Shown here in pieces: positions 33,766-56,967 of a stretch of 64,000 nt of DNA. The notes beneath the pieces are model-generated. The model ran no database searches. It was given only the letters and a program-made list of their open reading frames with translations, and was not told where the DNA came from. Where the stretch lies: IMG/VR virus record IMGVR_UViG_3300021399_000096; one strand, written 5' to 3'. The position numbers and the translations under genes are program-made. Position 1 is the stretch's first letter; each line of letters opens with the position of its first letter. The stretch comes from a virus. Taxonomy: Duplodnaviria; Heunggongvirae; Uroviricota; Caudoviricetes.

Positions 33766-35223
33766 ATGTTAACACAATTTGATAAAAATACAATTCTAAA
33801 AGAAATTCAAAAAACTCCAGATATTTTTGGGGTTCTTTGTAATATCCGAAAGGTTGCTGACACTTTACAATATCCATGTTATGTTGTCGGTGGTTATGTT
33901 CGTGATTTAATTCTTGGCAGGCCTAATGATGATATTGATGTTGTAGTAGTTGGAAAGGGACAGAAAATTGCAGAGGATTTTACAGAATATTTGAAGAGAG
34001 AATCAAATTTTGACAATATTAAATTATCAATATTTGAAAATTTTGGTACAGCCCAGGTTCATTTTGGAAATTGGGAAGTAGAATTTGTTGGTGCGCGTAA
34101 AGAATCATACGAGCGAGGTTCTCGTAAACCTATTGTAGAGGATGGAACTCTTGAAGACGATCAGCTTCGTCGTGATTTTACAATTAATGCGATGGCTATT
34201 CAACTTAATGCTGAACATTTTGGTGAGTTGATTGATCCATTTAACGGAATTGAAGATCTGAAGAATAAAATTATTCGGACTCCTGTAGATCCTGATACTA
34301 CATTCAGCGATGACCCACTACGTATGCTTCGGGCAGTTCGCTTTATGTGCAAGCTTGATTTCGGAATTGATCAGAAAACTCAAGATGGAATTATACGAAA
34401 TGTAGATCGTCTTGATATTATTTCCGCTGAGCGAATTACTACGGAGTTTATGAAAATCATGGCATCTGACCATGCAAAAGACGGAATTGAAATTCTGAAA
34501 AATTTTGGTTTGCTTAAAAAGTTTTTACCAGAATTGGTAGAAATGGATACTACTGGAGCTTCAACCGTATCTGAGTATGTACGCGGCCATAAAAATATTT
34601 TCTGGCATACATTATTTGTACTTGACAATGTTGTCAAACAGTCTGATAATGTATGGCTTCGTATTGCTGCTTTATTCCATGATATTGGTAAAATGAAAAC
34701 CAGATCTTGGAATGTCCATAAAGGTTGGTCTTTTGACAACCACGAATATGTAGGAGCTAAGATGATGAAATCTATATTTAGTCGTATGAAGATGCCTCTG
34801 GATGAAAATATGGATTTTGTAGAGACTATGGTTCGTATGCACATGAGACCTCAGGCTATTTGTGATGAAGGCGTAACTGATGCTGCTGTACGTCGTCTTG
34901 TTCATGATGCAAATGGTTATATTGATGAGCTACTTATTTTAGCTAAGGCTGATATTACAACAAAGCATGAAGATAAAAAGAAAAACTTCTGGAAGCAATA
35001 TGACGAATTGAAACAACGAATTGAAGAGTTGAAACAAAAAGATTATGTACGTTTATTCCAGCCATGTGTTTCAGGTGATGATATTATGATTCATTATCAT
35101 TTGACACCAAGTCGGCAAGTCGGTGAAATTAAACAACTTATTAAAGATGCTGTTCTTGATAATGTAGTTGAAAATACTCCAGATGCATTATATAAGTATA
35201 TTGATGAATATTACAAATTTTAA
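33766..35223 (+). CDS. cca: tRNA nucleotidyltransferase (CCA-adding enzyme) with a C-terminal HD domain.
   Basis: GGYVRDLILGRPNDDIDVVV is the pol-beta head motif GGxVRD...DxD. RRDFTINAMA is present. The HD domain shows HTLFVLD...AALFHDIGK. Confidence 0.8.
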   Translation: MLTQFDKNTILKEIQKTPDIFGVLCNIRKVADTLQYPCYVVGGYVRDLILGRPNDDIDVVVVGKGQKIAEDFTEYLKRESNFDNIKLSIFENFGTAQVHFGNWEVEFVGARKESYERGSRKPIVEDGTLEDDQLRRDFTINAMAIQLNAEHFGELIDPFNGIEDLKNKIIRTPVDPDTTFSDDPLRMLRAVRFMCKLDFGIDQKTQDGIIRNVDRLDIISAERITTEFMKIMASDHAKDGIEILKNFGLLKKFLPELVEMDTTGASTVSEYVRGHKNIFWHTLFVLDNVVKQSDNVWLRIAALFHDIGKMKTRSWNVHKGWSFDNHEYVGAKMMKSIFSRMKMPLDENMDFVETMVRMHMRPQAICDEGVTDAAVRRLVHDANGYIDELLILAKADITTKHEDKKKNFWKQYDELKQRIEELKQKDYVRLFQPCVSGDDIMIHYHLTPSRQVGEIKQLIKDAVLDNVVENTPDALYKYIDEYYKF

Positions 35224-36519: not shown

Positions 36520-37686
36520 ATGGGAGTAATTAAAAGTATTTTAGACACAGATTTGTATAAACTCAGTATGAGTTATGCATATATGAAGCTTTATCCTGAA
36601 GCTGAAGGAGTATTTGAGTTTTGTGATCGTAATCGAGTTAAACGGACGCAATCTGATGTAGAACAAATCCTTAATGAAATTAAAAAACTTGAGGATTTGC
36701 ATTTAACAGAAGATGAGTTTAATTGGTGTGTAAAACATATTCCTTATATTCCTGAATTTTACTGGGAGTGGCTTCGTGGTTTTAGATTTGATGCAAGTAA
36801 AGTTAAGGTATATCTTGATGATAATAAAATTCTTCATATCGAGGCAACCGATAAATTATATCGTCTGACTTTTTGGGAAATTGCATGTCTTGCTATTGTT
36901 TCCGAAGTATCAAATCGTGTTCATATAATTAATATGGCAGATATGTTGAAACGGCTTGATGCAAAGATTGCATTGTCAAATGAGTATAGCTTGGTATTTA
37001 GCGAGTTTGGTACCCGCCGCCGTTTTAGTTATAATGTTCAAGATGCTGTAGTAAAACGTCTTAAAGAAAATGCGCTTTATTGTGTAGGAACATCTAATGT
37101 TCATCTTGCAATGAAGTATGATATGAAACCGATTGGAACTGTTGCACATGAATGGATTATGTTCCATGCAGCACAGTTTGGTTATCGAAATGCGAATTAT
37201 AAATCATATGAAGATTGGGTTTCTGTTTATGATGGAAATCTTGGAATTGCATTAACTGATACATATGGTTCTAAAGCATTCTTTGATACATTTACAATGA
37301 AACATGCAAAATTATTTGATGGTGTTCGTCATGATTCTGGGGATGAATATGAATACACACAAATGGTAATTGATGCATATAAATCTAAGGGAATTGATCC
37401 TAAAGATAAAACTATTGTATTTTCAAATGCATTGACATTCCCGAAATATAAAGAGATTGCCGATTATTGTAAAGGTAAAATTAAATGTTCTGCCGGTATT
37501 GGAACAAATCTTACATGTGATACGAATACGCCAAGCCAGAATATTGTAATGAAATTAATGCAATGCAGAATGAATGCAAATAGTCCATGGGTTCATTGCA
37601 TTAAAGTGAGTGATGATGCCGGAAAGGTAATGGGAGATGAAACAGAAATCCAACAATGTTTTCATGATTTGAATATCAAAAAGTGA
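36520..37686 (+). CDS. pncB: Nicotinate phosphoribosyltransferase.
   Basis: ILDTDLYKLSM, FGTRRRFS, GTSNVHLA, GTVAHEW, GIALTDTYG and GVRHDSGD match conserved PncB blocks. Confidence 0.8.
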   Translation: MGVIKSILDTDLYKLSMSYAYMKLYPEAEGVFEFCDRNRVKRTQSDVEQILNEIKKLEDLHLTEDEFNWCVKHIPYIPEFYWEWLRGFRFDASKVKVYLDDNKILHIEATDKLYRLTFWEIACLAIVSEVSNRVHIINMADMLKRLDAKIALSNEYSLVFSEFGTRRRFSYNVQDAVVKRLKENALYCVGTSNVHLAMKYDMKPIGTVAHEWIMFHAAQFGYRNANYKSYEDWVSVYDGNLGIALTDTYGSKAFFDTFTMKHAKLFDGVRHDSGDEYEYTQMVIDAYKSKGIDPKDKTIVFSNALTFPKYKEIADYCKGKIKCSAGIGTNLTCDTNTPSQNIVMKLMQCRMNANSPWVHCIKVSDDAGKVMGDETEIQQCFHDLNIKK

Positions 37687-38163: not shown

Positions 38164-38805
38164 ATGAGTTTTAATGTATACACTGGAATTAAATTCCGAA
38201 CAAAGAGTTTTGAAAAGGCAGTAGATTCTTTGAAATCTATTAGAAAGCAGGCCTTAAAAAATATGGCCAATTCATTATTACATGGTAATTATATCAGTCT
38301 TCTTGTGGGACTTGACTATAAAATGAATCAATACCTTAAAGAAGATATTATTGCATATAAAAATGATCCATCTGAACAAAACCTTTTAAAAGCAAAGTTT
38401 GAAATTATTCGATATCTGGGTAGTCGTAAAGATGATGAAGCACGGTTAAATGGTGATTTAGATTATTCTTTCCAAGTAATGATATATCCATACCATGGAA
38501 ATTTATATGGAAATTATTTTGGATGTGATCATTGCCAAGAAAATAAAGATTTACTAATGACTATTGTTGATGATTATTGGTATGGTGATTCTGGAGATCC
38601 CGACCCAAATTTATCATGGAAACAATGGGGGCAACGCAGTAAAGTTTGGAATGGAATTTTTGACGAATATTGGAAACCGACAGAAAACGGAGCAGTATTT
38701 TATATTGCAAAATGGGATTGGCTTGATTGGCATGATATTTCAGATGAACTGATAGAAAGATTAGCAAAAGTTCCGATGTTTAATGAAACTAATGAAGAAA
38801 AATGA
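38164..38805 (+). CDS. Hypothetical protein.
   Basis: Intact ORF. Confidence 0.4.
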   Translation: MSFNVYTGIKFRTKSFEKAVDSLKSIRKQALKNMANSLLHGNYISLLVGLDYKMNQYLKEDIIAYKNDPSEQNLLKAKFEIIRYLGSRKDDEARLNGDLDYSFQVMIYPYHGNLYGNYFGCDHCQENKDLLMTIVDDYWYGDSGDPDPNLSWKQWGQRSKVWNGIFDEYWKPTENGAVFYIAKWDWLDWHDISDELIERLAKVPMFNETNEEK

Positions 38806-39383
38806 CTATAATTTATTCAAATTTTGGCGATCAAGATACTCAACTTCTTCAATTAATATGGGAGGGTTTGAATCCTGATCGAATTATTGAAATAACTCAT
38901 GACACAGAAGATTATGAGGATATTGTTGATGCGGCCCTTATGTCAGAAAATGATACATTAATTATGTGTGGACATGGAACCACACAAGGATTGCTTCATC
39001 CAAATTTGAATTCAGGACAATACATTATTCATGAAAATAATGTGCATTTAATTCATGCACGGAATGTTATTGGTTCATGGTGTTATGCAGCAGATTTTGC
39101 CGAAACACATCATTTGCATGGGTTTTTTACTGGAATGTTTATTTCAAATAAAAGTGAAGCAGAACAATACGGAATAACATTTGCACAAAGTGAATACGAT
39201 GACATTAATATAGAAATTACTCAATATGAAACATATTTTAATTTAATGATTCATAATTTTTTAGAAAGCGGTGTTCCATTATCTGAATGGGTAAATATGT
39301 TAAATAATGATGGAATAAACCATAGCAATATAATTGGATATTTTAATTTTAATAGAATGCGGTATTTTAATAATGAAATATGA
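38802..39383 (+). CDS. Hypothetical protein.
   Basis: Intact ORF with an ATGA overlap to the upstream gene. Confidence 0.4.
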   Translation: MTIIYSNFGDQDTQLLQLIWEGLNPDRIIEITHDTEDYEDIVDAALMSENDTLIMCGHGTTQGLLHPNLNSGQYIIHENNVHLIHARNVIGSWCYAADFAETHHLHGFFTGMFISNKSEAEQYGITFAQSEYDDINIEITQYETYFNLMIHNFLESGVPLSEWVNMLNNDGINHSNIIGYFNFNRMRYFNNEI

Positions 39384-39676
39384 AACAAGAAAATGAATAT
39401 TACTATCAAGAATTACACTCATATCATGCTGGTATGAAAAGAATGCTTTACGGGAAATTAGAAGTATTAAAACACGTATTGATGTTTTTAAATGATCCTG
39501 CATGTTTGCATATAGAAATAAAAAAATTAAATAACTATGAAATTAAACCAAATCAGTGGTTTGATGAAAAACATAACTTGATTGAAGATTGTGGAGATTT
39601 AGAAAAAACCGGAACCATTGATGAAAATGGAAATCTTATAACAGAAAAATATGGAGTGTTAACTAAAATATTGTAA
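39380..39676 (+). CDS. Hypothetical protein.
   Basis: Intact ORF with a 4-nt overlap. Confidence 0.35.
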   Translation: MKQENEYYYQELHSYHAGMKRMLYGKLEVLKHVLMFLNDPACLHIEIKKLNNYEIKPNQWFDEKHNLIEDCGDLEKTGTIDENGNLITEKYGVLTKIL

Positions 39677-39679
39677 ATT

Positions 39680-40147
39680 ATGACGTATAATAAAATGCTT
39701 AAAGAAATTCGTCAACTTGCCATACAATTTGGTGAGGATTTTGAGGTTATTTGGTTAATTGATACTTGGGGTATTAGTTATACTGGAAATATGGGTATTA
39801 AACGAACAAATGATTTACGAGAGATTATTACCATTGCTGATTTATATGCACAGTTTGTTGAAAAGGCAGGTGAATTTTATGAAAAATATAAGTTTACTGA
39901 TAAATTTAGAGAATTTTCTAAAATGATTCAAGACAAATACTTTGAACCTATCCAAGTTCCGAAGATTTATCAAGATTCTCATAATAAGTTTATTGAAGAA
40001 TGGAACAAAATTCATCCAGAAATATCTTATACTGATTATCTTAAGAAAGATGCAGAAATGAATCATAGAAGATTTGATTATATGAATGCAATGCTTGGGG
40101 AACCATACCCGGTATATTCAACATATTTTATAAAAAATTACAATTAA
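39680..40147 (+). CDS. Hypothetical protein.
   Basis: Intact ORF. Confidence 0.4.
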   Translation: MTYNKMLKEIRQLAIQFGEDFEVIWLIDTWGISYTGNMGIKRTNDLREIITIADLYAQFVEKAGEFYEKYKFTDKFREFSKMIQDKYFEPIQVPKIYQDSHNKFIEEWNKIHPEISYTDYLKKDAEMNHRRFDYMNAMLGEPYPVYSTYFIKNYN

Positions 40148-40149
40148 TT

Positions 40150-40548
40150 ATGATTAATGGAAAAAAGATAAATCTTCCTATTGAAGATATGGATGAAGAA
40201 TGTATTGAGTTGTGTGAGAAACTTAATTCATTAGATGGTATTGAAACTTGGGAAAGTTGTTGTGGACATTTAAAAGAAAGATATATGATATTTTTCTTTT
40301 GTAATGATTTTGTTAGACTTGGAAAACTTTCTCGGTGTGTAAATAGAAATTATAGTGATGGAAAATGGGAAATATTAGTAGATGATTCAGATCATTATCC
40401 TTCATATCTATTTTGGTTACGAAGTAAAAAGCCATTTAGAAGTTATAAAGCAATGGAAAAATCTGTTAAAAGTCTAATTGATAATATCAATTGGTGGGAA
40501 CAGGAAAAATTTGATAATTATTTTAAAACAAATCCAACAGAAAAATGA
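40150..40548 (+). CDS. Hypothetical protein.
   Basis: Intact ORF. Confidence 0.35.
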   Translation: MINGKKINLPIEDMDEECIELCEKLNSLDGIETWESCCGHLKERYMIFFFCNDFVRLGKLSRCVNRNYSDGKWEILVDDSDHYPSYLFWLRSKKPFRSYKAMEKSVKSLIDNINWWEQEKFDNYFKTNPTEK

Positions 40549-40922
40549 AAACAAATATTAAACATTATAGTGAAAAAACAAAGCAATCATTGTTTGCTCA
40601 GTTGCATTCATTAATTCCTGAAAAGCATAATGGTTTACAAAATATTGTAGATGTTTGTGAAGATATTATTATTAATGGAGATGATAATATGCAATATTGG
40701 TTTATTAATATATTTTCTAAAATTATTCATGAAACGGGTATATATTATAATTGCCTTCCGAAAAATGTTAGACATTATTATAGAGATGCATTTATTGAAA
40801 AGCTAAATTGCAAATTTTTTAAACATTTAGAAAATAATATTACTGATAAAAATGCATTAACACATTTTAAATGTTTATTAAATGCATATTTACAAGAAAA
40901 CATTTACAAGTATAAAAAATAA
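40545..40922 (+). CDS. Hypothetical protein.
   Basis: Intact ORF with a 4-nt overlap. Confidence 0.35.
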   Translation: MKTNIKHYSEKTKQSLFAQLHSLIPEKHNGLQNIVDVCEDIIINGDDNMQYWFINIFSKIIHETGIYYNCLPKNVRHYYRDAFIEKLNCKFFKHLENNITDKNALTHFKCLLNAYLQENIYKYKK

Positions 40923-40933
40923 AATTAAATAAA

Positions 40934-41236
40934 ATGATACAAATAGATAATAAATATGATTTTAACCAACATGTAAATTATCATATTTGGGAACCATTAG
41001 CACAAAAATATAGTAATTATTCAGGACATATTGTTGGGATAAATTACATAAATATGCAGAATCGTATTACTATAATGTATGGACTTATAGAGGATATTGA
41101 TTGGACAAATGATGAAGAAATAAAATCACTTGGTGTTCATTCTGATTATGAATATTATATGAAATATTGTGTAAATAGTAATGAACGTCCGAATGTTAAA
41201 ATAGATTGGGTTGAAGAAAATGGTATATGGGAATGA
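40934..41236 (+). CDS. Hypothetical protein.
   Basis: Intact ORF. Confidence 0.35.
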   Translation: MIQIDNKYDFNQHVNYHIWEPLAQKYSNYSGHIVGINYINMQNRITIMYGLIEDIDWTNDEEIKSLGVHSDYEYYMKYCVNSNERPNVKIDWVEENGIWE

Positions 41237-42333
41237 AAATGTTAAATTCAAATATTAATGTTAAAGAACTTCGAAAGCGATTTGAATATTTAAAAAATTG
41301 TATCCAATTTGAAGATAAAAAGAATCAAGAAAATGAGCTGAATATGCGAATGCACGATCCAGCTTTTTGGAATGATGCAAAAATGGCAGAAAAAATTTCG
41401 AAAGATTGGAAAAATTTATCTAAATTGATATGTGATATTAATTTAACTGATGATGACATTACATATTTAGAATTATTATCTGATGAAGAATTATCTCAAG
41501 ACTGGGCAAAAACATTATATAATACATGTATAGAAACAATTTCTAAATATGAAATGCAAACCATGCTAAATAAGGACGAGGATAAGATGCCGGCAGTTTT
41601 AAAAATTGTGGCTGGAGCCGGTGGAACTGAAGCACAAGATTGGGCTGAAATGTTAATGCGGATGTATCTATCTTATTTTGCAAATCATAATTTTACAGGA
41701 GAAATAACAAACTATCAAAAAGGTGATACGGCAGGAATTAAAACTGTTTCATTTAATGTATATGGAGATTTTGCATATGGGTATCTTAAAAGCGAAACTG
41801 GAATACACCGATTAGTAAGAGTAAGTCCATATAATGCACAAGGAAAACGTATGACAAGTTTTGCAAGTGTATTTGTGTGTCCATTGGTAGATGACTCCAT
41901 TGAAGTTAATATTAATCCTGCAAATATTACAATGGATACATTTAGATCTTCTGGCGCAGGCGGACAGAATGTTAATAAAGTTGAATCTGGAGTAAGACTT
42001 CATTATAAGTTTATTAATCTATTAACAGGACAGGAAGATGAATTAGTAGCAGAAAGTACAGAATCTAGAGATCAACCTAAAAACAGAGAAATTGCAATGC
42101 AACATTTGCGCAGTCAATTGTATGAATTAGAACTTGAAAAACGACGTCAAATTCAAGCAGAAATAGAAAATAAAAAGATGCCAATTGGCTGGGGTGCACA
42201 AATTAGAAGTTATGTTTTTGATGATAAACGTGTAAAAGATCATAGAACAAATTATCAGACATCTGATGTAAGTTCAGTAATGAATGGGCATATTGATGAA
42301 TTTATTAAAGCATATTTAATGGAAACTAATTAA
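41227..42333 (+). CDS. prfB: Peptide chain release factor 2. The gene is uninterrupted, with no programmed frameshift site.
   Basis: The GGQ motif is in SSGAGGQNVNKVESGVRL. The RF2-type tripeptide region LVRVSPYNAQGKRMTSFASVFV carries an SPY variant of SPF. AGAGGTEAQDWAEMLMRMY and GWGAQIRSYVFDD are also present. Confidence 0.85.
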   Translation: MGMKMLNSNINVKELRKRFEYLKNCIQFEDKKNQENELNMRMHDPAFWNDAKMAEKISKDWKNLSKLICDINLTDDDITYLELLSDEELSQDWAKTLYNTCIETISKYEMQTMLNKDEDKMPAVLKIVAGAGGTEAQDWAEMLMRMYLSYFANHNFTGEITNYQKGDTAGIKTVSFNVYGDFAYGYLKSETGIHRLVRVSPYNAQGKRMTSFASVFVCPLVDDSIEVNINPANITMDTFRSSGAGGQNVNKVESGVRLHYKFINLLTGQEDELVAESTESRDQPKNREIAMQHLRSQLYELELEKRRQIQAEIENKKMPIGWGAQIRSYVFDDKRVKDHRTNYQTSDVSSVMNGHIDEFIKAYLMETN

Positions 42334-42399: not shown

Positions 42400-44388
42400 A
42401 TGGATAACAATATTGAAAAATATCAAAGTAAAGAATTAGTTACAAGAGACGCGCAGATTGCAAATGCTCTTGAAACTCATCCAAAAGACTGGCAGAAGGA
42501 TATTCAGCCTGGCAATTATATTATTGATATGTCTTGGCATGATCCGCGTTGTTATCGTATTGTATCTATTGAACCAGAAAAAGACATCAAATTAGAATTT
42601 GAAAATGGTGAACGTAAAGAAATTGAATTAGATACATATCACCTTAATGTAAAGGGTGTAGGATTTGATCCATTTATAGATAAAGAATATGAAGTTGGTT
42701 CTGGAGGTTATAATCCTGAAAGAACCGAAGTTAGAGCATTGTCAATTAATGGCACAGATTATGGAAGAAATTATTTGGTTTTTAAAAATAAAGAGGAATT
42801 AGTTGCATATGTAAATCGAGGTATGGATGCAATTAATGGTAAAGATGATGAGTTTTTACAAACAGATAATATAAGTGATGATGACACCAACGAGGAAAGT
42901 ACAGCGCTTGTTAGTATGTCTGCATCAAAACAAACATATTTAAATGCACAAAATACTACACTTGCTCTTAAAGAAGAAATGGATCGAAAGCTCGCTATTG
43001 TTAAAATGTGTATTGCAGAACAACGTGAAAAAGTTGAAGCAATACAACGTAAATATAGAGATGCAATAATGGTTGTTGAACGTAAGTTGACACGTATTCG
43101 CAGGGTTCTTGGTCAGCTTGAATTGTATACAGGTGTCAATGAAGATGTTATTCAAATTCAAGAAGGTACGCCTGCGCCGATTGATGAACCTATTCAATTC
43201 TTCCAAGAGGTTCTTTATATGGATGAAGAGGTTGGTGATTGGAAAGATGGCGGTCTTGATTTTACAAAAATTGAGCAATTTGACGAATGGCTTCTTAGAA
43301 ATAACCACCTTGATTTATTTGTATCTAAGAAAGGTGTTCGCGTATTCCGTGTTCGCAGAAATGGAAAACAAGGCGGTGAAATTAAATATGGACATCATTA
43401 TGTTTATAATCCATATTTAATAAATGAATTAGATGAGAATGATGTAAAAACATATATTATTGTTAGAAACGGCGATAACGTATATCGAATTTGGGCAGAT
43501 TTAATTATCCATCCATATTTGTTTCCAAAGCAAGATGAGCTTCAAAAACTTGTAGATGAATTGGAGAAGGAAGGTATACACTATATAAGAAAAAATAAAC
43601 AAGAACAAATTGAAGATTTTATAGACAGATATAAATTTAATTTCTGTTTACTTCAGGGTTTGCTTGATCATTCAGATGTTTTGGCTCCGCATAATCCAGT
43701 TAACCTATTCAAAGAAGGATTAGAATCTCCATATGTTGAATTTGTGTATGATGCCGAATATAAACGTGTTAGCGATGGACATCCTGATTATTGGCATTTT
43801 GTAACAGAAATTAATAAAGACATTAAAGTTGGTTCTCGTATATTATTTTTACAAAATTATGTAATGGGTGTTCAAGATCGTTTTGATGAAAGATATTATT
43901 CTTGGAACCGTGATAAAGATGACACATGGGGTCTTCCGAATGTTCCAGACACCGGTTTATATACGATAGAGAAAAATTCGCATGGTGATTTTGTAATTAA
44001 ATACATGCCAGATAAAACATGGCATTATGATCCAGATAGAAAAAACCGTATATCATTTAAGGTTTATACTGATGCGCGTGAAGTTCTTAATTATGATGCA
44101 TTAGATATTGAAACAGTAGAATATTACCTTAATAATAGAATTAATCGTGCAGATTATCTAAGCATTATGCCAATGTTGGAAAATGTTCATAAACAATTAT
44201 TAGAAGAAATGAAACAAGAGGAATCTTTTATACTATTATTAAAGGGACAAGTTCCTAATGTAAGTGACGAGCTTATTAAAGAAACCATTAAATGGTGGAA
44301 ACTTAAAAATAAGGTTAAACGTCCTATTACATCTAATGATGCATTGGCATATAAACAAATTTTAAACAAACTTCAAAAATTCAATTAA
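42400..44388 (+). CDS. Large hypothetical protein of 662 aa.
   Basis: Intact ORF immediately after the conserved element. Its central coiled-coil segment is visible. Confidence 0.45.
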   Translation: MDNNIEKYQSKELVTRDAQIANALETHPKDWQKDIQPGNYIIDMSWHDPRCYRIVSIEPEKDIKLEFENGERKEIELDTYHLNVKGVGFDPFIDKEYEVGSGGYNPERTEVRALSINGTDYGRNYLVFKNKEELVAYVNRGMDAINGKDDEFLQTDNISDDDTNEESTALVSMSASKQTYLNAQNTTLALKEEMDRKLAIVKMCIAEQREKVEAIQRKYRDAIMVVERKLTRIRRVLGQLELYTGVNEDVIQIQEGTPAPIDEPIQFFQEVLYMDEEVGDWKDGGLDFTKIEQFDEWLLRNNHLDLFVSKKGVRVFRVRRNGKQGGEIKYGHHYVYNPYLINELDENDVKTYIIVRNGDNVYRIWADLIIHPYLFPKQDELQKLVDELEKEGIHYIRKNKQEQIEDFIDRYKFNFCLLQGLLDHSDVLAPHNPVNLFKEGLESPYVEFVYDAEYKRVSDGHPDYWHFVTEINKDIKVGSRILFLQNYVMGVQDRFDERYYSWNRDKDDTWGLPNVPDTGLYTIEKNSHGDFVIKYMPDKTWHYDPDRKNRISFKVYTDAREVLNYDALDIETVEYYLNNRINRADYLSIMPMLENVHKQLLEEMKQEESFILLLKGQVPNVSDELIKETIKWWKLKNKVKRPITSNDALAYKQILNKLQKFN

Positions 44389-47289: not shown

Positions 47290-48972
47290 ATGAGAAATTT
47301 ACTATCACAATCTAAAGACATGTCACATGAATATTGTGCCACTGTTGTTCAATTGGGTGAATTGACTCCAATTGAAGAAACTGATTTTCTCGCCACTGTA
47401 ATGGTTGAAGGTCGAGAAATTGTAGTTCGTAAAGATCGCGTTAAAGAGGGCGATATTATGATTTATGTATCTAATGAGTGTCAGCTTGATCAACTTTTTT
47501 TGCATTATAACAATGAGTTCCAGGATGAAGAGCTTAATGCAAATTATTCTGAAGTCCAAAAACATGTTGAGCAAATGAAATCTGAAGGTGCATCTGAAGA
47601 TGATATTAAATCATATATTGCAGCTAATCGTGGATACTTTGATAAGAAATGCCGTGTTCGTATGAAGCGAATTAAAGGTGTTATGTCAATGGGTTATCTT
47701 ATTTCACCTGATCAAATGAGCACATATAATGAACAATTTCTTATAGAGCATTTTGATTGGGCTCAACATATCGGTGAGGATTTTGATACTATTGATGGAG
47801 AACTATTTGTAAAGGCATATGTTCCTGAAGTTAAAGAAGAAAAACGTAGAAATCGAGTTGGACGATATGAAAAACAAATTAAAAAATATGATCGTATGAT
47901 TCCTGGACAATTTGCATTCCACTATGATACTCAACAACTTCAACGTGAGATTGGAAGATTGCAGCCTGAAACTTCAGTTGCAATTTCAGTAAAGCTTCAT
48001 GGAACATCAGCAATTTTTGGTAATGTAAAAGTTAATAAGCCGAAATATGGAGGGTTATATTCAAAACTATTTGTATATTTGCCAAAGTTCTTGCAATTTA
48101 CTACTGAAGATTATGATGTAATTTATAGTTCTCGTAGTGTAATTAAAAATCAAAATATGCTTGCAACTGTATATCAATACATTTATACTTGGTATAATCA
48201 TATTACACGTACGCTGCATTCATTGTTTAAGAAAAACAAACGTGTATTGAATGAAGACGGAACACCTAAAACTTTCTGGGATAAAATTAAAGATTTGTTT
48301 AAAAATCCTATTCAATCTAAAAAAGACGGTTTTTATGGAGTTGATGTATGGAAGCAATACTATGATATCCTTAAAGGTATTATTCCACAAGGAATGACTT
48401 TATATGGTGAAATTGTAGGCTATCTTCCTGACAGTACTTCTGGTATTCAATCTCTTGGAGGTAAGGTTTACGATTATGGTTGCAAACCAGGTGAGAATAA
48501 ACTTATGATTTATCGTATCAAACGAGTAATGGAAGATGGACAAGTATTTGAGTTCAACGTTCAAGATGTTCATGATTATACTGAGCGATCACTTATTTTT
48601 ACTCTTAAAGAGCTTGATAATATGCATGGAACTCATTATGCAGATCAAATTATTCCTATTCCGATTTTGTATAATGGAGATATGAAGAATTTGTATCCTG
48701 AAATTGATATTAAAAATCATTGGCATGAAAATATTTTGAATGCAATGAAATCCGATAAGAAATTCTGTATGGAAATGGATGAGCCATTGTGTAAAAACAA
48801 ACTTCCTCGCGAGGGCATTGTTCTTCGAATTAATGATGATCCAATGGCAGAGGCATTTAAACTTAAGTGCTTAAAGTTCCTCGGAAAAGAAGCAGAAGAT
48901 ATTGATAAAGGACGTTCTAATGATATTGAAATGCAAGAACGATACACGGACGATTCTTCTGAAGAAAATTAA
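47290..48972 (+). CDS. RNA ligase, T4 Rnl2-like nucleotidyltransferase domain, with an N-terminal extension of about 230 aa.
   Basis: SVKLHGTSAIFGN is motif I (KxHGT, as in Rnl2 KIHGTN). EGIVLRIND is motif IV (EGYVLK). AFKLKC is motif V (K-x-K). Confidence 0.6.
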   Translation: MRNLLSQSKDMSHEYCATVVQLGELTPIEETDFLATVMVEGREIVVRKDRVKEGDIMIYVSNECQLDQLFLHYNNEFQDEELNANYSEVQKHVEQMKSEGASEDDIKSYIAANRGYFDKKCRVRMKRIKGVMSMGYLISPDQMSTYNEQFLIEHFDWAQHIGEDFDTIDGELFVKAYVPEVKEEKRRNRVGRYEKQIKKYDRMIPGQFAFHYDTQQLQREIGRLQPETSVAISVKLHGTSAIFGNVKVNKPKYGGLYSKLFVYLPKFLQFTTEDYDVIYSSRSVIKNQNMLATVYQYIYTWYNHITRTLHSLFKKNKRVLNEDGTPKTFWDKIKDLFKNPIQSKKDGFYGVDVWKQYYDILKGIIPQGMTLYGEIVGYLPDSTSGIQSLGGKVYDYGCKPGENKLMIYRIKRVMEDGQVFEFNVQDVHDYTERSLIFTLKELDNMHGTHYADQIIPIPILYNGDMKNLYPEIDIKNHWHENILNAMKSDKKFCMEMDEPLCKNKLPREGIVLRINDDPMAEAFKLKCLKFLGKEAEDIDKGRSNDIEMQERYTDDSSEEN

Positions 48973-51502: not shown

Positions 51503-51536
51503 AAGGTTGAAAAATTAATTCCAACCTTTGTTTTTT
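51503..51536. terminator. Bidirectional terminator hairpin between convergent genes.
   Basis: Stem aaggttg / caacctt flanked by an A-run upstream and a T-run downstream. Confidence 0.55.
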
Positions 51537-52695
51537 AATCTTCTTCATCAAAACACCATTTTAATGTATGAACATCAGATGTTGCATTAAATAGCCGTTT
51601 ATAATCATCAAAATCATATAATGTAATTTTGCTTTTATAAAAACGTCCAACAAAGTTTCCAGCTTTTTGTCTATATACATAATATAATTCTACTTCAGAA
51701 TTATCAAAAAGCTCAAAAGTTACTTTAGCCTAATCTATAGTTCCCTGAGGAACCATTTTATATCTATATCTTTGAGTTCTATATTCTTTTACTGGTGCAG
51801 AATCAATTAATTCAATTTTATAAGAATTAATTTTATTATTCTAATGTATATATTTTTTAAGATTTTCTGGGAATATTTCAGAATGTGCGGCTTCATTAAA
51901 TCCACCCTTTCCGTCATATTCTTGAAGATCATCTATTAATTCTTTTATATCTTCAGGAATATTATATGTTGCATATTTTCTTCTATATGCTTCAAGCTGT
52001 GCATCATTTAATATATTCAACTCATATATTCTATCTTTAAATGCTTTAACTGCTTCTTTCCAACCTAATGTATTTGCAATAATATATCTGGCAACTATTT
52101 TATTATTATCTTTGCATGAATTTGCAACTCTTTCTGGATTTGAATGTCTATTTTTATAATCAATCATCTTCATCCAGTCTCTTACAGTTGGGGCATATTC
52201 ATCAGTATTAGTTGCATCAACTTCCATATCAAATTTTCTTTCGGCATCTGCTAGTGCAAGTTGTAAATCATCATCCTTTTTAAAATTATATTCAACTTGT
52301 ATTTGCTGTATTGTTTGAATTTTAGAAGATATAATTTTAAATTCTTTATGTTTTTTAATATATTCTTGAATTTTCTATAAATCTTCTCTAATATTATAAT
52401 AACCAAACTAAGGAGAGATTGTTAGTCTTATAGGTTGATTTGAATATACCGAACCAATATAAAGAGTCAATTTGCCATAAGGTTCATATGTAAAACTATA
52501 AAATCTATTTGTTAAATTTGGAATAGATGTAAATTTTTTATAAATCCATTCCTGTATAGTCATTTTTAAAAATTGTTTAAGATCTGCTATATCTATATTA
52601 TGTTCAGGCGTGGCAGTTCTATACTCATTAAGAGCGGTTTTTACTTGCTTAGCAACTGACCTCATTATGTTTTCATATAATATATTTTTATTCAT
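51535..52695 (-). CDS. Leader-family paralog of about 386 aa with four in-frame TAG codons at 52408, 52375, 51841 and 51730.
   Basis: Track ORFs 52408-52695 and 51841-52227 lie in one frame. The whole interval 51538-52695 has no TAA or TGA in that frame. The N-terminus MNKNILYENIMRSVAKQVKTALNEY matches the family leader. The C-terminus reads ...HTLKWCFDEED. Confidence 0.55.
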
Positions 52696-53121: not shown

Positions 53122-54222
53122 ATGAATTATAATTATCCAAATATAGAAGAATCAAGAAACAAAATAAATGATTTGTTTAATGGAAAATCTATAGTATATT
53201 TTCCAATTGTTTCTATGCAAAACAGAGAAACTGGAAATTATAAATTAGATCAAGATGGAAATGTTAATAGATTTATTACATTTTTTTCAAAATGCAACAC
53301 AATGAAACAATTATATATTACACTTCCATCTAATAAAGAAAGCTGCAAATATTATACAGATTTTACTAAATCTAAAAATAATATTACAACAATTTATAAT
53401 ACTAATTTTGGACAACATGCATTAGATCAAAGAGTAAATAAAGATATTATTACTGATCAATATAATGCAAGTAAAGAAATAATAGATCATTCTGATATTA
53501 TAATAGTTGAAAGTCAAGGATTGGCAAATTTGATATTGTCTAATAATCAAAATAAAACCATTATATATTGGTGCCCAGTTTCAGTAACTAATAAAAAATC
53601 TAGATCATTTATTGAGCAATATCGAGAAATAGATAAAGAACTGTTTAATAAAGTAAATTATATAATTGTTGTATCTCCAGAACAATATGATTATTTGATA
53701 GAATTAGGAATCAATTCAGAAAAAATATTATATTATTATGAATTGATGGATCGAAGTCTCCCAGTTTTTAATCGCTATAATCATATAGATACAATATCAT
53801 CTAAGAAAATAATATATCTTCCATTCAGACTTACAGATGAAGGTTACAAATCTGAACAAATTTTAGATATTTTAGAACAATTATCTATTAAATACCCAAA
53901 TAAATTTGTTATTGTTTATTCGGATCCAAATAATTCAAAATTCGAGAGAGTAACAAAAAATCCAAATTTATATTTTAAAATATCTTCAGACAGAGATACA
54001 TATTATTCATATTTGGATTCCAAAAATGTATTGATTCCATATTTTGAAGATATTAATTATGTTAATCATGCATCAATTCATGAGTTTAATAATGAGCAAT
54101 CTAAATGTACAGTTCTATTAAACAATACTGAATATCATGCATATAATATAAAACGAAAAGATATATTATATATTGACTTCGAAGACCTTTATAAAAATTT
54201 AGAGAAATTTATAAATGAATAA
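53122..54222 (+). CDS. Hypothetical protein, possibly a glycosyltransferase-like Rossmann-fold protein.
   Basis: Intact ORF. It alternates beta-alpha patterns, but no diagnostic motif is seen. Confidence 0.35.
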   Translation: MNYNYPNIEESRNKINDLFNGKSIVYFPIVSMQNRETGNYKLDQDGNVNRFITFFSKCNTMKQLYITLPSNKESCKYYTDFTKSKNNITTIYNTNFGQHALDQRVNKDIITDQYNASKEIIDHSDIIIVESQGLANLILSNNQNKTIIYWCPVSVTNKKSRSFIEQYREIDKELFNKVNYIIVVSPEQYDYLIELGINSEKILYYYELMDRSLPVFNRYNHIDTISSKKIIYLPFRLTDEGYKSEQILDILEQLSIKYPNKFVIVYSDPNNSKFERVTKNPNLYFKISSDRDTYYSYLDSKNVLIPYFEDINYVNHASIHEFNNEQSKCTVLLNNTEYHAYNIKRKDILYIDFEDLYKNLEKFINE

Positions 54223-55246
54223 GAATAAAATAATTTGTGGACCGTGTTCAGCAGAAACTAGAGAACAAATCTTAGAAACTGCTATGTAGCTGACATCTTT
54301 AGGATATTATAATTTTAGAGCTGGTGTATGGAAGCCAAGAACTAAACCAGGCGGTTTTGAAGGTCATGGCGAAGAAGCATTAAAATGGTTGGTAGAAGCC
54401 AGAAAACTATATAATATTATTCCATATGTTGAAGTTGCAAATCCATCTCATGTTGAATTATGTAAAAAATATGGAATTAATCATTTGTGGGTTGGTGCAA
54501 GAACATCATCAGATCCATTTGCCACTCAAGAACTTGCTAATTCATTAGTAGATTTTGATTGTGAAGTTTTAGTTAAAAATCCGGTTTCTGCTGATTTAGA
54601 ATTATGGATTGGTGCAATTCAAAGAATCAAAAATGCCGGTGTAAAAACAGTTAAAGCAATTCATAGAGGATTTTCTGATTATAATGAAAAGATTTATAGA
54701 AATAGTCCAATATGGACAATTCCTCTTGAATTAAAATCAAGAATGCCTGAATTAGAAATATATTGTGATCCATCACATATATCTGGAAATTCTCAATTGA
54801 TTCCAAGTTTAATAAATCAAGCATATAATTATGGATTTGATGGATTTATTATTGAATCTCATTGTGATCCAAAAGCAGCTTGGACTGATGCAAAACAACA
54901 ATTGGTTCCATCTGATATGAATACATTAATTTCAGCATTGGAAGAAAAACCAGAAATTTCTTTGGATGAGTATGATAAATTATTATTAAGTTCATATCGT
55001 GAAACTATTAATAATATTGATACGCAACTAATTAAATTCTTTAGTGAGCGAATGAAAATTAGTAAAGAAATTGGAGAATTGAAAGGTGAACATAATATGC
55101 CAGCTTTACAATATGACAGATGGAAAGAATTGTTATCAAAAAATATTGAGTTAGGTAAAACATATAATTTAGATGAAGAATTTATTTCAAAGATTTGGAA
55201 TATTATTCATGAGGAATCTATTAAAATTCAATCAACACAAAAATAA
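54215..55246 (+). CDS. 3-deoxy-7-phosphoheptulonate (DAHP) synthase, KDO8PS-like class I-beta, fused to a C-terminal chorismate mutase. It has one in-frame TAG at 54287-54289.
   Basis: The N-terminus MNKNKIICGPCSAETREQILETAM[TAG]LTSLG...PRTKPGGFEGHGEEALKWL lies upstream of track ORF 54389-55246 in the same frame. IAGPCS-type motif, CDPSH, and a C-terminal AroQ-class CM segment LIKFFSERMKISKEIGELK are present. Confidence 0.7.
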
Positions 55247-55259
55247 AAAATATTAATAT

Positions 55260-56369
55260 ATGAATTTATATAAAGTAGGATGTAATTTTGATTTTGAACT
55301 AATTAAAATAGTCAAAAATCTAAATGAAAAATATAAAGGCAAAGCCCAAGTAAAAGAATTTTTTGGATCTGATGCGGCACATGAAGAAATCACAGCTAGA
55401 CCAGGTTGGAGACTTCCAGATATTTCAATGACCGATTTAGAAAAATTTGTAAAAGAAGCTAAAGAAGCTGGAATATTGTTTAATTATACAATGAATAGTA
55501 TTCAACCATATGGAAGCAAAATTGAAATGATCAATCATAAACAAGATATTCAAAATTTTGTTAAATGGCTTGAAGAAATTGGTGTATATCGTATTACAAT
55601 TGCAAATCCAATGATGGCATTGTTTATTCGTGAAGTATCTAATATTGAATTGGAATGTTCAACTATAATGCATATTGATACTGTTACTCAACTAAAATAT
55701 TATCATGAGACTTTTGGAATTAATAAATTCTGTTGTTCTATTCTTAAGAATCGTAATAAAAAATTCTTAGAGAATGCTGCAAAATATTGTAATGATAATG
55801 GTTTAATATTTGAGCTGCTTTGTCAAGAATTTTGTGGAGTTGCTGGCGAGGATAAAAATGGTGTACCATATGCAACACATTGTGCTTTTAGAGATTCTTG
55901 TTATTTGTGCCATGCAACTAATAGAACTAAAGATGATTCAATGGCATATAATAATTATCCAATGGGATATTGTATGATGGCCAGAGCTAAGAACGAACAA
56001 AATTGGTTAAGAATGAGATGGATTCGTCCAGAAGATCAAAAAGTATATAATGAAATTGGAATTAATTATTTCAAAGTGAGCGGAAGAACTGGAACTACTG
56101 AATATTTAAAAACCGTATTAGAGGCATACATGTCTGAAAACTTTGACGGAAATCTATTAACATTATGGAAGCCTCTTCAAACAATTTTCTCAAAAGAAGC
56201 AGAATTAACATATCAACATCCAGAATATATTGATAATAAAAAACTAGATGGTTTTATAGATCATTGGTTCAAAGGCGATGGATTTGAATGTGAAAATGAA
56301 ATGTGTGGAGTGACATGTAAATATTGCGAAAATTTTTGGAACTCTCATTTTAAAAAAGATGTTGAATAA
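55260..56369 (+). CDS. Hypothetical Cys-rich protein embedded in the aromatic-pathway cluster.
   Basis: Intact ORF with CQEFCG, HCAFRDSCYLCH and CENEMCGVTCKYCE clusters. There is no confident family assignment. Confidence 0.4.
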   Translation: MNLYKVGCNFDFELIKIVKNLNEKYKGKAQVKEFFGSDAAHEEITARPGWRLPDISMTDLEKFVKEAKEAGILFNYTMNSIQPYGSKIEMINHKQDIQNFVKWLEEIGVYRITIANPMMALFIREVSNIELECSTIMHIDTVTQLKYYHETFGINKFCCSILKNRNKKFLENAAKYCNDNGLIFELLCQEFCGVAGEDKNGVPYATHCAFRDSCYLCHATNRTKDDSMAYNNYPMGYCMMARAKNEQNWLRMRWIRPEDQKVYNEIGINYFKVSGRTGTTEYLKTVLEAYMSENFDGNLLTLWKPLQTIFSKEAELTYQHPEYIDNKKLDGFIDHWFKGDGFECENEMCGVTCKYCENFWNSHFKKDVE

Positions 56370-56375
56370 TTAAAA

Positions 56376-56404
56376 AGAACCATTAAAACTAATGGTTCTT
56401 TTTG
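56376..56404 (+). terminator. Rho-independent terminator.
   Basis: Stem agaaccatt / aatggttct followed by a T-run. Confidence 0.65.
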
Positions 56405-56436
56405 CTATAAAATATACAAAATTAATTAAATTAGTA

Positions 56437-56967
56437 ATGACAAATTTATTTGTTATAGAAGGTCAAGATAGAGCCGGTAAAGATACATTACTTCATGATT
56501 TAGAAAAAATAGGATTAACAATATTTAGTCCAGATACAAGTTATCTTCCAAATTATCATAATGCTGATGAATTTAGAGCTGCATTAAAATTATATTTGGA
56601 AAAACAAACTAATGATATGATTAATCTAAATGTAAAAGATTTATATATTGCAAGGTATCAATTGAGTGAATATGTTTATGCTGAATTATTTAATCGACCA
56701 AATTTGTTTGAAGATTATATTAATGGTATATTAAAGGATCATTTTAAAATCAAAAACATTATTTTATTATGGGATACATATCAAGATTATTTGGATAGAT
56801 TAAAAATGATTAATGATGATTATATTGAATATACTGAAGAAGATTTTAATAAAATTAAAAATTTATATTTAAAATATAAACAACCTAATGATGTTGTTAT
56901 TTATGTAAAAACAAATACAACTCGTGAAGATTTAATAACAAAAGCAAAGTAGATAATATGCATGTAA
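56437..56967 (+). CDS. Deoxynucleoside monophosphate kinase, T4 gp1-like / thymidylate kinase-like P-loop kinase. It reads through a TAG at 56950-56952.
   Basis: VIEGQDRAGKDTL resembles T4 gp1 LSGVKRSGKDT and Tmk EGxDGAGKTT. The start is moved to the ATG after the terminator. Confidence 0.5.

What the first reader, a model, noticed from the sequence alone, without database searches (positions are those of the whole stretch)
41227..42333. Phage-encoded release factor 2 alongside TAG recoding
The gene is a complete RF2, with the GGQ motif, an SPF-type (here SPY) tripeptide region and conserved N-terminal blocks. RF2 reads UAA and UGA but not UAG. A phage that uses TAG as a sense codon benefits from supplying RF2: TAA/TGA termination is kept, while host RF1 is the only competitor at TAG codons. 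Unlike bacterial prfB, there is no in-frame UGA autoregulatory +1 frameshift site at the N-terminus; the ORF is continuous.
Basis: partly seen in the sequence, partly recalled or inferred. Interest (0 to 1): 0.75.

Follow-up and report, generated by a model that had tools for sequence, protein, structure and literature searches.

The report
Phage release factor 2, TAG recoding
A jumbo gut phage related to the Lak megaphages carries a working copy of a bacterial stop-codon reader (RF2) that ignores TAG, while some of its virion genes use TAG to encode glutamine; this pairing is real here but has already been described for Lak and other recoded phages.

Summary
Window 41227..42333 (+) is an uninterrupted 368-codon gene for a full-length class-I release factor. 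It scores as RF2 (TIGR00020 415 bits, cutoff 370) and falls below both RF1 cutoffs. The window is phage DNA: it has a gp23-type capsid protein and a tail sheath that are 61% and 56% identical to those of Lak megaphages. TAG is a sense codon in at least six genes, with 12, 5, 2, 2, 3 and 4 in-frame TAGs. Ortholog comparisons point to glutamine.

Two details in the finding are not special to the phage. The SPY tripeptide, an 8-residue insertion after GGQ, and the missing +1 frameshift site are all shared with chromosomal RF2 genes of Bacteroidales, the closest being Paludibacteraceae at 60-62%, and with Lak RF2.

The gene is conserved in at least six related phage contigs, with dN/dS of 0.07-0.11. 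It sits in a roughly 22-kb TAG-free block alongside a CCA-adding enzyme and an RNA ligase. No suppressor tRNA, RF1 or other release factor lies in the 64 kb.

RF2 with TAG recoding is already published for Lak and Agate phages (Devoto 2019; Borges 2021). This is a new member of a known kind and of low interest. A complete shikimate pathway next to a U32-family gene (54.2-62.5 kb) may be the more novel feature of the window.

The parts
41227..42333 (+). prfB-like gene: full-length release factor 2, 368 aa, a continuous ORF with no in-frame TAG and a TAA stop
   Evidence: dN/dS of 0.07-0.11 against relatives
41824..41832 (+). SPY tripeptide (residues 200-202), at the position of the RF2 SPF 'peptide anticodon', within VRVSPYNAQGKRMTSF
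   Evidence: the same motif is present in Bacteroidales and Lak RF2
41959..41967 (+). GGQ catalytic motif (residues 245-247). An 8-residue Bacteroidales-type insertion follows it (HYKFINLLTGQEDELVAE).
38164..42333 (+). Tightly packed or overlapping array of eight same-strand genes ending in RF2 (likely one transcription unit). All are TAG-free, and the seven upstream genes have no recognisable family.
   Evidence: the same order is seen in relatives L001 and L002
33766..35223 (+). CCA-adding tRNA nucleotidyltransferase (PolyA_pol head + HD), in the same TAG-free block as RF2
47290..48972 (+). RNA ligase (phrog_968), in the same TAG-free block
3086..5020 (+). Tail-fibre-like gene with 12 in-frame TAG codons
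5025..5798 (+). Paralog of the C-terminal part of the preceding gene, with 5 in-frame TAGs. Three of them align with TAGs in the paralog (48% identity, E 3e-62).
7170..10478 (+). Tail sheath gene with in-frame TAGs at 7734 and 9381. It matches single sheath genes in Lak, Flavobacterium phage MaF61 and Tenacibaculum phage pT24.
12305..13234 (-). Minus-strand gene with 2 in-frame TAGs
16537..17013 (+). HNH endonuclease gene with 3 in-frame TAGs
51535..52695 (-). Minus-strand gene with 4 in-frame TAGs. Orthologs swap TAG with CAG/CAA at four positions.
23524..25080 (+). gp23-type major capsid protein, 61% identical over its full length to Lak megaphage MCP. This identifies the phage lineage.

Best explanation
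The gene encodes a functional RF2 of Bacteroidales origin, carried by a jumbo phage related to the Lak megaphages. Close relatives are on contigs of 204-263 kb.

Shown:
- It is a complete RF2 under strong purifying selection.
- It is written in standard code, inside a roughly 22-kb stretch with no in-frame TAG that also holds a CCA-adding enzyme and an RNA ligase.
- The phage reads TAG as a sense codon, most likely Gln, in a minority of genes. Those that can be identified are a tail sheath, tail-fibre-like proteins and an HNH endonuclease.
- The 70 plus-strand genes called with TAG read as sense end in TAA (56) or TGA (14), the two codons RF2 reads. Because those calls allow only TAA and TGA as stops, this shows the TAA:TGA split, not that TAG is never used as a stop.

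Inferred:
- Unmodified host ribosomes can translate the RF2 gene before any code change takes place.
- The extra RF2 gives the infected cell termination capacity at UAA and UGA that does not depend on RF1. A suppressor tRNA(CUA), encoded elsewhere in the genome, can then outcompete RF1 at UAG, or RF1 can be neutralised, without the phage's own termination suffering.
- The TAG-containing late genes are then translated.

This is the 'code-switch' model already proposed for Lak and other recoded phages.
For: -
- Phage identity and Lak relationship: MCP is 61% identical over 100% coverage, and the sheath is 56% identical.
- TAG as sense is shown. The sheath pieces match single annotated sheath genes in standard-code phages.
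- TAG as Gln: ortholog swaps are TAG<->CAG/CAA at 5 sites, against 1 TAT and 1 TGG. Lak has Q at the sheath TAG at 9381.
- Among genes called with TAG as sense, 56 end in TAA and 14 in TGA.
- RF2 and every gene tested between 25.3 and 51.5 kb (except 38164..38805) and between 52.8 and 62.5 kb show no TAG difference against the relatives.
- Conservation and selection: the RF2 orthologs P0001, P0002, P0003, P0005 and P0006 are 78-94% identical on phage-like contigs with the same gene order. dN/dS is 0.07-0.11.
- Association with recoding: all 13 IMG/VR viral contigs carrying this RF2 type have 25-29% GC. Twelve of them hold long ORFs with 2-44 in-frame TAGs within 10 kb.
- In the GenBank phage collection, the only full-length RF2 hits on large phage genomes with viral context are the Lak genomes. 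The other hits are mostly short fragments named after their hosts, which I take to be host DNA; four of them are 94-214 kb records (Acinetobacter phage MD-2021a, Pseudomonas phage Y1, Staphylococcus phage SA 1306 Kay) that I did not examine.
Against: - No suppressor tRNA was found in the window, even with intron and relaxed ARAGORN settings and Rfam. None lies within 10 kb of RF2 in any relative. The decoding side of the switch is therefore unverified for this lineage.
- No anti-RF1 function was identified.
- Supplying RF2 does not in itself lower RF1 activity at UAG, so the benefit is indirect.
- TAG use is sparse. Most structural genes, including the capsid gene, have no TAG or only one ambiguous TAG.
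- Two sister genomes carry N-terminal lesions in RF2, so full-length RF2 may not be strictly required.
- Expression timing and stop-codon specificity are untested.
Confidence: 0.75

Rival explanations
1. RF2 is a general translation-capacity gene with no specific link to TAG recoding. Jumbo phages often carry translation factors, and this AT-rich phage ends 80% of its genes in UAA. The RF2 would simply add termination capacity during heavy phage protein synthesis.
For: - The gene sits with other RNA and translation maintenance genes, a CCA-adding enzyme and an RNA ligase.
- It is not next to a suppressor tRNA or a lysis cassette.
- Recoding in this phage is sparse.
Against: - Every viral contig found with this RF2 type also shows TAG recoding or belongs to the Lak-like low-GC group.
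- No RF1 accompanies it. A pure capacity boost would be expected to include RF1, or to appear in standard-code jumbo phages.
- Borges et al. report the mirror case, RF1 in TGA-recoded phages.
Confidence: 0.15
2. RF2 is a weapon or necessity in a host that reads UGA as sense (the Ivanova 2014 idea). The phage brings RF2 to terminate at UGA in a host that lacks RF2, truncating host proteins and allowing its own TGA-ending genes to terminate.
For: The phage does use TGA as a stop in 14 of 70 genes. The idea is cited in the literature.
Against: - The RF2 is of Bacteroidales type, 60-62% identical to Paludibacteraceae, with shared SPY and insertion signatures.
- Lak relatives infect Prevotella.
- Every Bacteroidales locus examined carries its own RF2 gene, which argues that these bacteria use UGA as a stop.
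Confidence: 0.03
3. The gene is a recently captured or decaying host passenger, or an assembly chimera, with no role for the phage.
For: Two sister genomes have lesions in the first 52 codons: an in-frame TGA in L001/L104 and a 1-nt deletion in L002/L003.
Against: - The GC content and codon style match the phage.
- Gene order is conserved in at least five distinct contigs.
- dN/dS is 0.07-0.11, even against the lesion-bearing copies.
- The protein is only 60-67% identical to any bacterial RF2, so the capture is old.
Confidence: 0.03

Closest known systems
RF2 of Lak megaphages (Prevotella phages Lak-A1/B/C; Devoto et al. 2019, PMC6784885)
   Same: - It is a phage-encoded full-length RF2 in a TAG->Gln recoded, roughly 26-29% GC gut phage.
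- It has the same Bacteroidales-type signatures: SPY, KRM in place of RRH, an 8-residue insertion after GGQ, and a continuous ORF with no +1 frameshift.
- The phages are related: MCP is 61% and the sheath 56% identical.
- Nine of 17 substitutions specific to the window clade are shared with Lak RF2.
   Different: - The RF2 proteins are only 48-51% identical, less than either is to bacterial RF2.
- The gene neighbourhood differs. The conserved downstream 662-aa gene has no Lak homolog.
- Relatives have contigs of about 204-263 kb, against about 540 kb for Lak.
- TAG use is far sparser: 2-12 per gene in a few genes, against 8-44 per gene next to RF2 in Lak-like contigs.
Chromosomal prfB of Bacteroidales without the programmed frameshift (e.g. 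Paludibacteraceae MAGs from ruminant and horse gut; Bacteroides rodentium, B. heparinolyticus, Phocaeicola massiliensis)
   Same: They are 60-62% identical over the full length (64-67% in the trimmed alignment). They share the N-terminal layout (MITxEQLK...), SPYNAQGKRMTSF, the insertion after GGQ, and a continuous ORF.
   Different: The window's gene is encoded in a phage with AT-rich codons. It sits on a long branch in the tree, and 17 positions are fixed differently from an otherwise at least 95% conserved bacterial residue.
Classical RF2 with +1 PRF autoregulation (E. coli prfB; also B. xylanisolvens, Parabacteroides, Tannerella, Barnesiella)
   Same: Same family and domain order. It aligns with E. 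coli RF2 residues 8-361. The residue before SGAGGQ (E. coli position 246) is Ser.
   Different: - There is no CUU UGA C shift site.
- SPY replaces SPF.
- Met replaces the His that follows RR in E. coli (RRHTSF versus KRMTSF).
- There is an 8-residue insertion after GGQ.
RF1 'code-change module' of TGA-recoded Jade phages (Borges et al., preprint 10.1101/2021.08.26.457843)
   Same: The logic is mirrored: the phage supplies the release factor that does not read its recoded stop codon, encoded in standard code.
   Different: [quoted passage not shown] Here no tRNA lies within 41 kb upstream or 22 kb downstream of RF2, and no aaRS or lysis gene was recognised nearby.

Membership tests
Bacterial class-I release factor RF2 (prfB, TIGR00020) | Whole-protein score above the curated prfB cutoff and below the RF1 cutoffs | tested here: met
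   TIGR00020 scores 415.5 bits against a cutoff of 370. The RF1 models score 227.6 and 204.1 bits against cutoffs of 400 and 423.
Bacterial class-I release factor RF2 (prfB, TIGR00020) | Full domain architecture (PCRF codon-recognition part plus the RF-1/GGQ domain), not a GGQ-only protein such as ArfB or RF-H | tested here: met
   PCRF covers residues 33-215 and RF-1 covers 224-340. The protein aligns end to end with solved RF2 chains. ArfB and RF-H match only partially and far below their cutoffs.
Bacterial class-I release factor RF2 (prfB, TIGR00020) | GGQ catalytic motif | tested here: met
   SGAGGQNVNK, with GGQ at residues 245-247
Bacterial class-I release factor RF2 (prfB, TIGR00020) | SPF tripeptide at the codon-recognition loop (RF1 has PxT) | tested here: inconclusive
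   The motif is SPY, not SPF. The same SPY is found in chromosomal RF2 of many Bacteroidales, including cultured Bacteroides, Parabacteroides and Phocaeicola, and in Lak RF2. It is therefore a lineage variant of RF2 and not an RF1-type PxT. The genome scan used the peptide YNAQGKRM as one of its patterns, which biases that sample towards SPY.
Bacterial class-I release factor RF2 (prfB, TIGR00020) | Programmed +1 frameshift at an in-frame UGA near codon 25 (common but not universal in prfB) | tested here: not met
   The ORF is continuous with no CTTTGA. This feature is not required for membership. About 60 of 80 Bacteroidales prfB loci also lack it.
Bacterial class-I release factor RF2 (prfB, TIGR00020) | Peptide release at UAA and UGA but not UAG | not testable with these tools
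   This needs a biochemical release assay.
Code-15 (TAG->Gln) phage 'code-switch' toolkit as described for Lak phages | In-frame TAG codons in real genes, concentrated in structural or late genes | tested here: met
Code-15 (TAG->Gln) phage 'code-switch' toolkit as described for Lak phages | TAG decoded as glutamine | tested here: met
   Five of 7 ortholog swaps are TAG<->CAG/CAA. Lak has Q at one sheath TAG. This is comparative evidence only, with no peptide data.
Code-15 (TAG->Gln) phage 'code-switch' toolkit as described for Lak phages | Phage-encoded suppressor tRNA with anticodon CUA | tested here: inconclusive
   None is in the 64-kb window or in about 20-kb stretches of relatives.
Code-15 (TAG->Gln) phage 'code-switch' toolkit as described for Lak phages | The release factor that does not read the recoded codon is itself encoded in standard code | tested here: met
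   The RF2 ORF has no TAG, and its orthologs show no TAG at any aligned position.
Lak-like phage lineage | Hallmark virion proteins closest to Lak megaphages | tested here: met
   MCP is 61% identical over 100% coverage, and the next best hit is 38%. The sheath is 56% identical, and the next best is 33%.

The most novel reading that the evidence does not exclude
In this phage lineage the canonical prfB +1 frameshift autoregulation may have been replaced, in some members, by other 5'-proximal recoding signals in the RF2 gene. One is an in-frame UGA at codon 16 (L001/L104). The other is a site at codon 52 that needs a -1 shift on A-AAA (L002/L003). Under this reading, full-length RF2 would be made only when RF2 is scarce. 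The window's own copy has neither signal. The evidence is two genomes, each possibly seen twice from the same reads. Mutation, or reinitiation at Met38/40/53, is the simpler reading.
Probability: 0.06. Interest if true: 0.6.

Novelty: new member of a known kind. Interest (0 to 1): 0.25.

Why it matters
The finding adds a second, smaller-genome branch of Lak-related phages in which RF2 travels with TAG->Gln recoding, and in which recoding is much sparser than in Lak. That makes the lineage a useful comparison for asking what comes first in a code change: the release factor, the suppressor tRNA or the recoded late genes. It also shows that the features a sequence reader might take as phage adaptations (SPY, no frameshift site) are inherited from the Bacteroidales donor. 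This points to a Bacteroidales host. It does not change the current picture of phage stop-codon recoding.

Tried and rejected
1. I looked for tRNA-Sup(CUA) with ARAGORN (standard, intron-aware and relaxed settings) and with Rfam on the window. I also ran ARAGORN on all fetched relatives. The only credible tRNA was a tRNA-Leu(taa) in two Lak-like loci. The hits at relaxed settings lie inside coding genes.

2. I tried to reach the rest of the genome. The exact RF2 protein is not on record. The window's first gene and its chorismate synthase have no close relatives in IMG/VR. An exact 44-mer found only a 2-kb locus of a relative. The rest of the genome therefore could not be scanned.

3. I looked for a second release factor or a GGQ protein in six-frame translations and found none.

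4. I tested whether SPY or the lack of a frameshift is phage-specific. This was rejected.

5. I tested whether RF2 was inherited vertically from a Lak ancestor or acquired independently. The result is unresolved:
   - Both phage clades sit on long basal branches of the NJ tree.
   - Nine of 17 clade-specific substitutions are shared with Lak.
   - There is no shared gene neighbourhood.

6. Sigma-70 and Bacteroidetes TAnnTTTG promoter scans and terminator scans around RF2 showed no enrichment over shuffles, so no timing inference can be drawn.

7. The conserved 662-aa gene downstream of RF2 (42400..44388) has no match in Pfam, PHROGs or NCBIfam. I could not test the idea that it is an RF1 antagonist.

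8. The 'Bacteriophage sp.' records MT839727 and MT836638, the best GenBank hits at 53-56%, have 47-51% GC and look bacterial, so I did not use them as phage evidence.
Full report
**1. The observation**

Window 41227..42333 (+) is an uninterrupted 368-codon ORF with an ATG start and a TAA stop. Its first 10 nt overlap the stop of the upstream ORF. Further in-frame ATGs lie at 41233 and 41239.

Pfam finds a PCRF domain (residues 33-215, E 4e-47) and an RF-1 domain (224-340, E 8e-31). NCBIfam places the protein in prfB/TIGR00020 at 415.5 bits, above the curated cutoff of 370. The two RF1 models reach only 228 and 204 bits against cutoffs of 400 and 423. RF-H and ArfB match a fragment only.

Against solved structures the protein aligns from residue 9 to 364 with E. 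coli RF2 residues 8-361 (E 8e-83). RF1 chains reach E 6e-42. SPY is at residues 200-202 (nt 41824..41832) and GGQ at 245-247 (nt 41959..41967). The residue before SGAGGQ, E. coli position 246, is Ser.

There is no in-frame stop and no CTTTGA shift site. The gene is therefore a complete RF2, not RF1 and not a GGQ-only rescue factor.

**2. The surroundings are a phage that reads TAG as sense**

The window has 28% GC, and almost all genes are on one strand. It encodes several phage genes:
- a gp23-type major capsid protein (23524..25080), 61% identical over its full length to the Lak megaphage capsid protein, with the next best phage hit at 38%;
- a tail sheath (7170..10478), 56% identical to Lak;
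- an HNH endonuclease;
- tail-fibre-like proteins.

Reading TAG as a stop breaks several of these genes. With TAG read through:
- 3086..5020 becomes one 644-aa ORF with 12 TAGs;
- 5025..5798 becomes one 257-aa ORF with 5 TAGs;
- the sheath becomes one 1102-aa ORF with 2 TAGs;
- the HNH gene has 3 TAGs;
- the minus-strand genes 12305..13234 and 51535..52695 have 2 and 4.

The chance of 663 codons free of TAA/TGA in this DNA is about 4e-20. Reading TGA through yields no ORF like the long multi-TAG ones found when TAG is read through.

Two independent lines show that these are real coding sequences. First, the two tail-fibre-like genes are paralogs (48% identity, E 3e-62) that align across three shared TAG positions. 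Second, the three 'fragments' of the sheath match single annotated sheath genes in the standard-code phages MaF61 and pT24.

Orthologs in related contigs exchange TAG with CAG or CAA at five positions, with TAT once and with TGG once. Lak has Gln at the sheath TAG at 9381. TAG most likely encodes glutamine, as published for Lak.

Among 70 plus-strand gene calls made with TAG as sense, 56 end in TAA and 14 in TGA. Because those calls allow only TAA and TGA as stops, they show the TAA:TGA split, not that TAG is never a stop. Two genes, 25268.. and 56392.., have a TAG followed within 1-5 codons by TGA or TAA.

**3. Where RF2 sits**

RF2 is the last gene of a tightly packed same-strand array (38164..42333). 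The other members of the array have no recognisable family.

From about 29.7 to 51.5 kb no called gene contains a TAG. This block also holds a CCA-adding tRNA nucleotidyltransferase (33766..35223), a nicotinate phosphoribosyltransferase (36520..37686) and an RNA ligase (47290..48972).

The window contains no tRNA, even with intron-aware or relaxed ARAGORN settings. It has no Rfam family hit and no second class-I release factor. RF2 is therefore not part of a compact 'code-change operon' of the kind described for Jade phages.

**4. Relatives and selection**

The protein database holds orthologs at 76-94% identity (P0001-P0010) on phage-like contigs up to 212.6 kb, with the same gene order. IMG/VR holds 13 viral contigs with this RF2 type:
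- two belong to the window's own lineage (204 and 263 kb; the 204-kb one is 95-97% identical in DNA to the window);
- eleven are Lak-like contigs of 40-554 kb with 45-55% identity.

All 13 have 25-29% GC. Twelve carry long ORFs with 2-44 in-frame TAGs within 10 kb of RF2. Pairwise dN/dS of the RF2 body against three relatives is 0.07-0.11. No relative has a TAG anywhere in the RF2 gene. The gene is therefore a conserved, selected component of these phages.

**5. Origin, and what is not phage-specific**

The closest bacterial RF2 proteins are from Paludibacteraceae genomes assembled from ruminant and horse gut samples (60-62% identity). Bacteroides, Prevotella, Muribaculaceae and others follow at 54-59%.

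These bacterial proteins, and Lak RF2, share three features with the window's protein:
- the exact loop SPYNAQGKRMTSF, so SPY and the Met in place of the E. coli His are lineage traits;
- the 8-residue insertion after GGQ;
- the same N-terminal layout.

The genome scan used YNAQGKRM as one of its search peptides. That biases the sample towards SPY, but the loci include complete genomes of cultured species.

Of the 80 Bacteroidales prfB loci, about 19 carry the classical site GGGGGTATCTTTGAC. About 60, including all the nearest Paludibacteraceae, are continuous ORFs. The two kinds are interleaved in the tree. The continuous ORF in the phage is therefore inherited and is not a phage adaptation.

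The evidence does not settle whether the window's RF2 and Lak RF2 descend from one ancient capture:
- They are only about 50% identical, and each is closer to bacterial RF2.
- Both sit on long basal branches of the tree.
- Nine of 17 substitutions specific to the window clade are shared with Lak.
- There is no shared gene neighbourhood.

**6. Mechanism**

Shown: a complete, selected RF2 written in standard code, in a phage that uses TAG as a sense codon in a subset of genes. Those that can be identified encode a tail sheath, tail-fibre-like proteins and an HNH endonuclease.

Inferred, from established knowledge that RF2 reads UAA and UGA while RF1 reads UAA and UAG:
- The host machinery can make the phage RF2 before any code change.
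- The phage RF2 supplies termination capacity at UAA and UGA that does not depend on RF1.
- A suppressor tRNA(CUA) can then win at UAG, or RF1 can be disabled, without starving UAA termination.

This is the model already published for Lak phages and generalised by Borges et al.. Because the gene has no frameshift site, it would escape the RF2-dependent feedback that limits prfB expression in bacteria that have one. The donor lineage lacks that site as well.

The main rival is a general termination-capacity role unrelated to recoding, which I put at about 0.15. The idea of a UGA-recoded host is unlikely, given the Bacteroidales origin of the gene and the Prevotella hosts of Lak. A passenger or pseudogene is unlikely, given the conservation and the dN/dS values.

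**7. Comparison with what is known, and novelty**

Several papers already report RF2 in TAG-recoded phages:
- Devoto et al. 2019 state that all complete Lak genomes encode RF2 together with a tRNA(CUA).
- Crisci et al. 2021 repeat this.
- A 2026 survey notes RF2 in code-15 jumbo phages.

The present case is a new member of that kind. It is a Lak-related lineage with contigs of about 200-260 kb, an RF2 only about 50% identical to Lak's, sparser recoding and a different neighbourhood. A specialist would not be surprised by it. I score interest at 0.25.

**8. Noticed in passing**

- In the sister genome L001, which is identical to L104 over 20,987 nt, the RF2 gene has an in-frame TGA at codon 16 where the window has CGA.
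- In L002/L003 a 1-nt deletion in an A-run at codon 52 puts the N-terminus in another frame. A -1 slip on A-AAA would restore it.
- Both lesions lie in the first 52 codons and the rest of each gene is intact. Mutation with reinitiation at Met38/40/53 is the simple reading. An autoregulatory recoding signal is a long shot.
- Window 54.2-62.5 kb encodes what looks like a complete shikimate pathway plus chorismate mutase, wrapped around a U32-family protein.
  - The block is conserved in related contigs.
  - In a more distant 293-kb phage contig the U32 gene is directly followed by a stand-alone chorismate mutase.
  - U32-family enzymes such as TrhP and UbiU/V use prephenate as the oxygen donor for hydroxylation (PMC6599085 and PMC10990095).
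  - The phage may therefore make prephenate for an anaerobic hydroxylation of tRNA, rRNA or DNA.
  - A literature search found no report of a complete shikimate pathway in a phage.

Noticed in passing
window 54215..62475 (+), with flanking genes 53122..54222 and 62515..63189; relatives L116/L117 9068..19311; L118 10001..11447: The phage encodes an apparently complete shikimate/chorismate pathway:
- a DAHP synthase + chorismate mutase fusion, 54215..55246;
- DHQ synthase, 57487..58473;
- shikimate kinase, 58470..58964;
- a DHQase II + EPSP synthase fusion, 58927..60756;
- chorismate synthase, 60749..61714;
- shikimate dehydrogenase, 61717..62475.

The pathway surrounds a peptidase-U32-family gene (55260..56369). 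That U32 gene has more than 370 homologs at E <= 1e-5, and the 120 best are 61-97% identical, on phage-like contigs up to 293 kb. The whole block recurs in relatives. In a distant 293-kb phage contig the U32 gene is directly followed by a stand-alone chorismate mutase. U32 enzymes (TrhP, UbiU/V) use prephenate as an oxygen donor, so this may be a phage prephenate-dependent hydroxylation system for tRNA, rRNA or DNA. No paper describing a complete phage shikimate pathway was found.
   Followed up: partly
L001 9936..9938 (= L104; ENA ERZ3810914 NODE_5 / IMGVR_UViG_3300011005_000050), aligned with window 41278..41280: The sister phage's RF2 gene has an in-frame TGA at codon 16 (AAG TGA TTT) where the window has CGA (Arg). 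The frame continues unshifted, and the rest of the gene is 92-94% identical in protein to the window's. L001 and L104 are 100% identical over 20,987 nt, so this is one genome seen in two assemblies.
   Followed up: partly
L002 about 4430..4445 and L003 (ENA ERZ28633895 scaffold_1202; Logan SRR12711498), aligned with window 41374..41385: Another relative has one A fewer in the run GCAAAAATGG, so RF2 codons 1-51 are in a different frame from the body. A -1 slip on A-AAA would restore the protein exactly. The body is intact, with dN/dS of 0.07 against the window.
   Followed up: partly
loci L005-L084 (Bacteroidales prfB): Within Bacteroidales the classical prfB +1 frameshift site (GGGGGTATCTTTGAC) is present in about 19 and absent in about 60 of 80 species-level loci. 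The two states are interleaved among close relatives. For example, B. xylanisolvens has the site, while B. rodentium and Phocaeicola massiliensis lack it. This implies repeated loss or gain.
   Followed up: partly
window 42400..44388 (+): A 662-aa protein with no match in Pfam, PHROGs or NCBIfam is conserved downstream of RF2, immediately so in L001 and L002. In L004 two small ORFs intervene before the 667-aa ortholog. It has no Lak homolog and only weak hits to hypothetical proteins of other large phages. Its function is unknown.
   Followed up: partly
window 25268..27424 and 56392..56967: Two genes have a TAG followed almost at once by a second stop (TAG TGA at 27419..27424; TAG plus 4 codons, then TAA, at 56950..56967). 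These could serve as stops while RF1 is active and as Gln plus a short tail after the code switch.
   Followed up: no
window 36520..37686 (+): The phage encodes a nicotinate phosphoribosyltransferase (NAPRTase N-terminal and catalytic domains) inside the TAG-free block. The 212-kb relative L001 has no counterpart at this position.
   Followed up: no
window 16537..17013 (+); L116/L117 11169..12170: The HNH endonuclease gene carries 3 in-frame TAGs. A different HNH gene sits inside the shikimate block of the relatives. This fits the published observation that homing endonucleases in recoded phages are themselves recoded.
   Followed up: no
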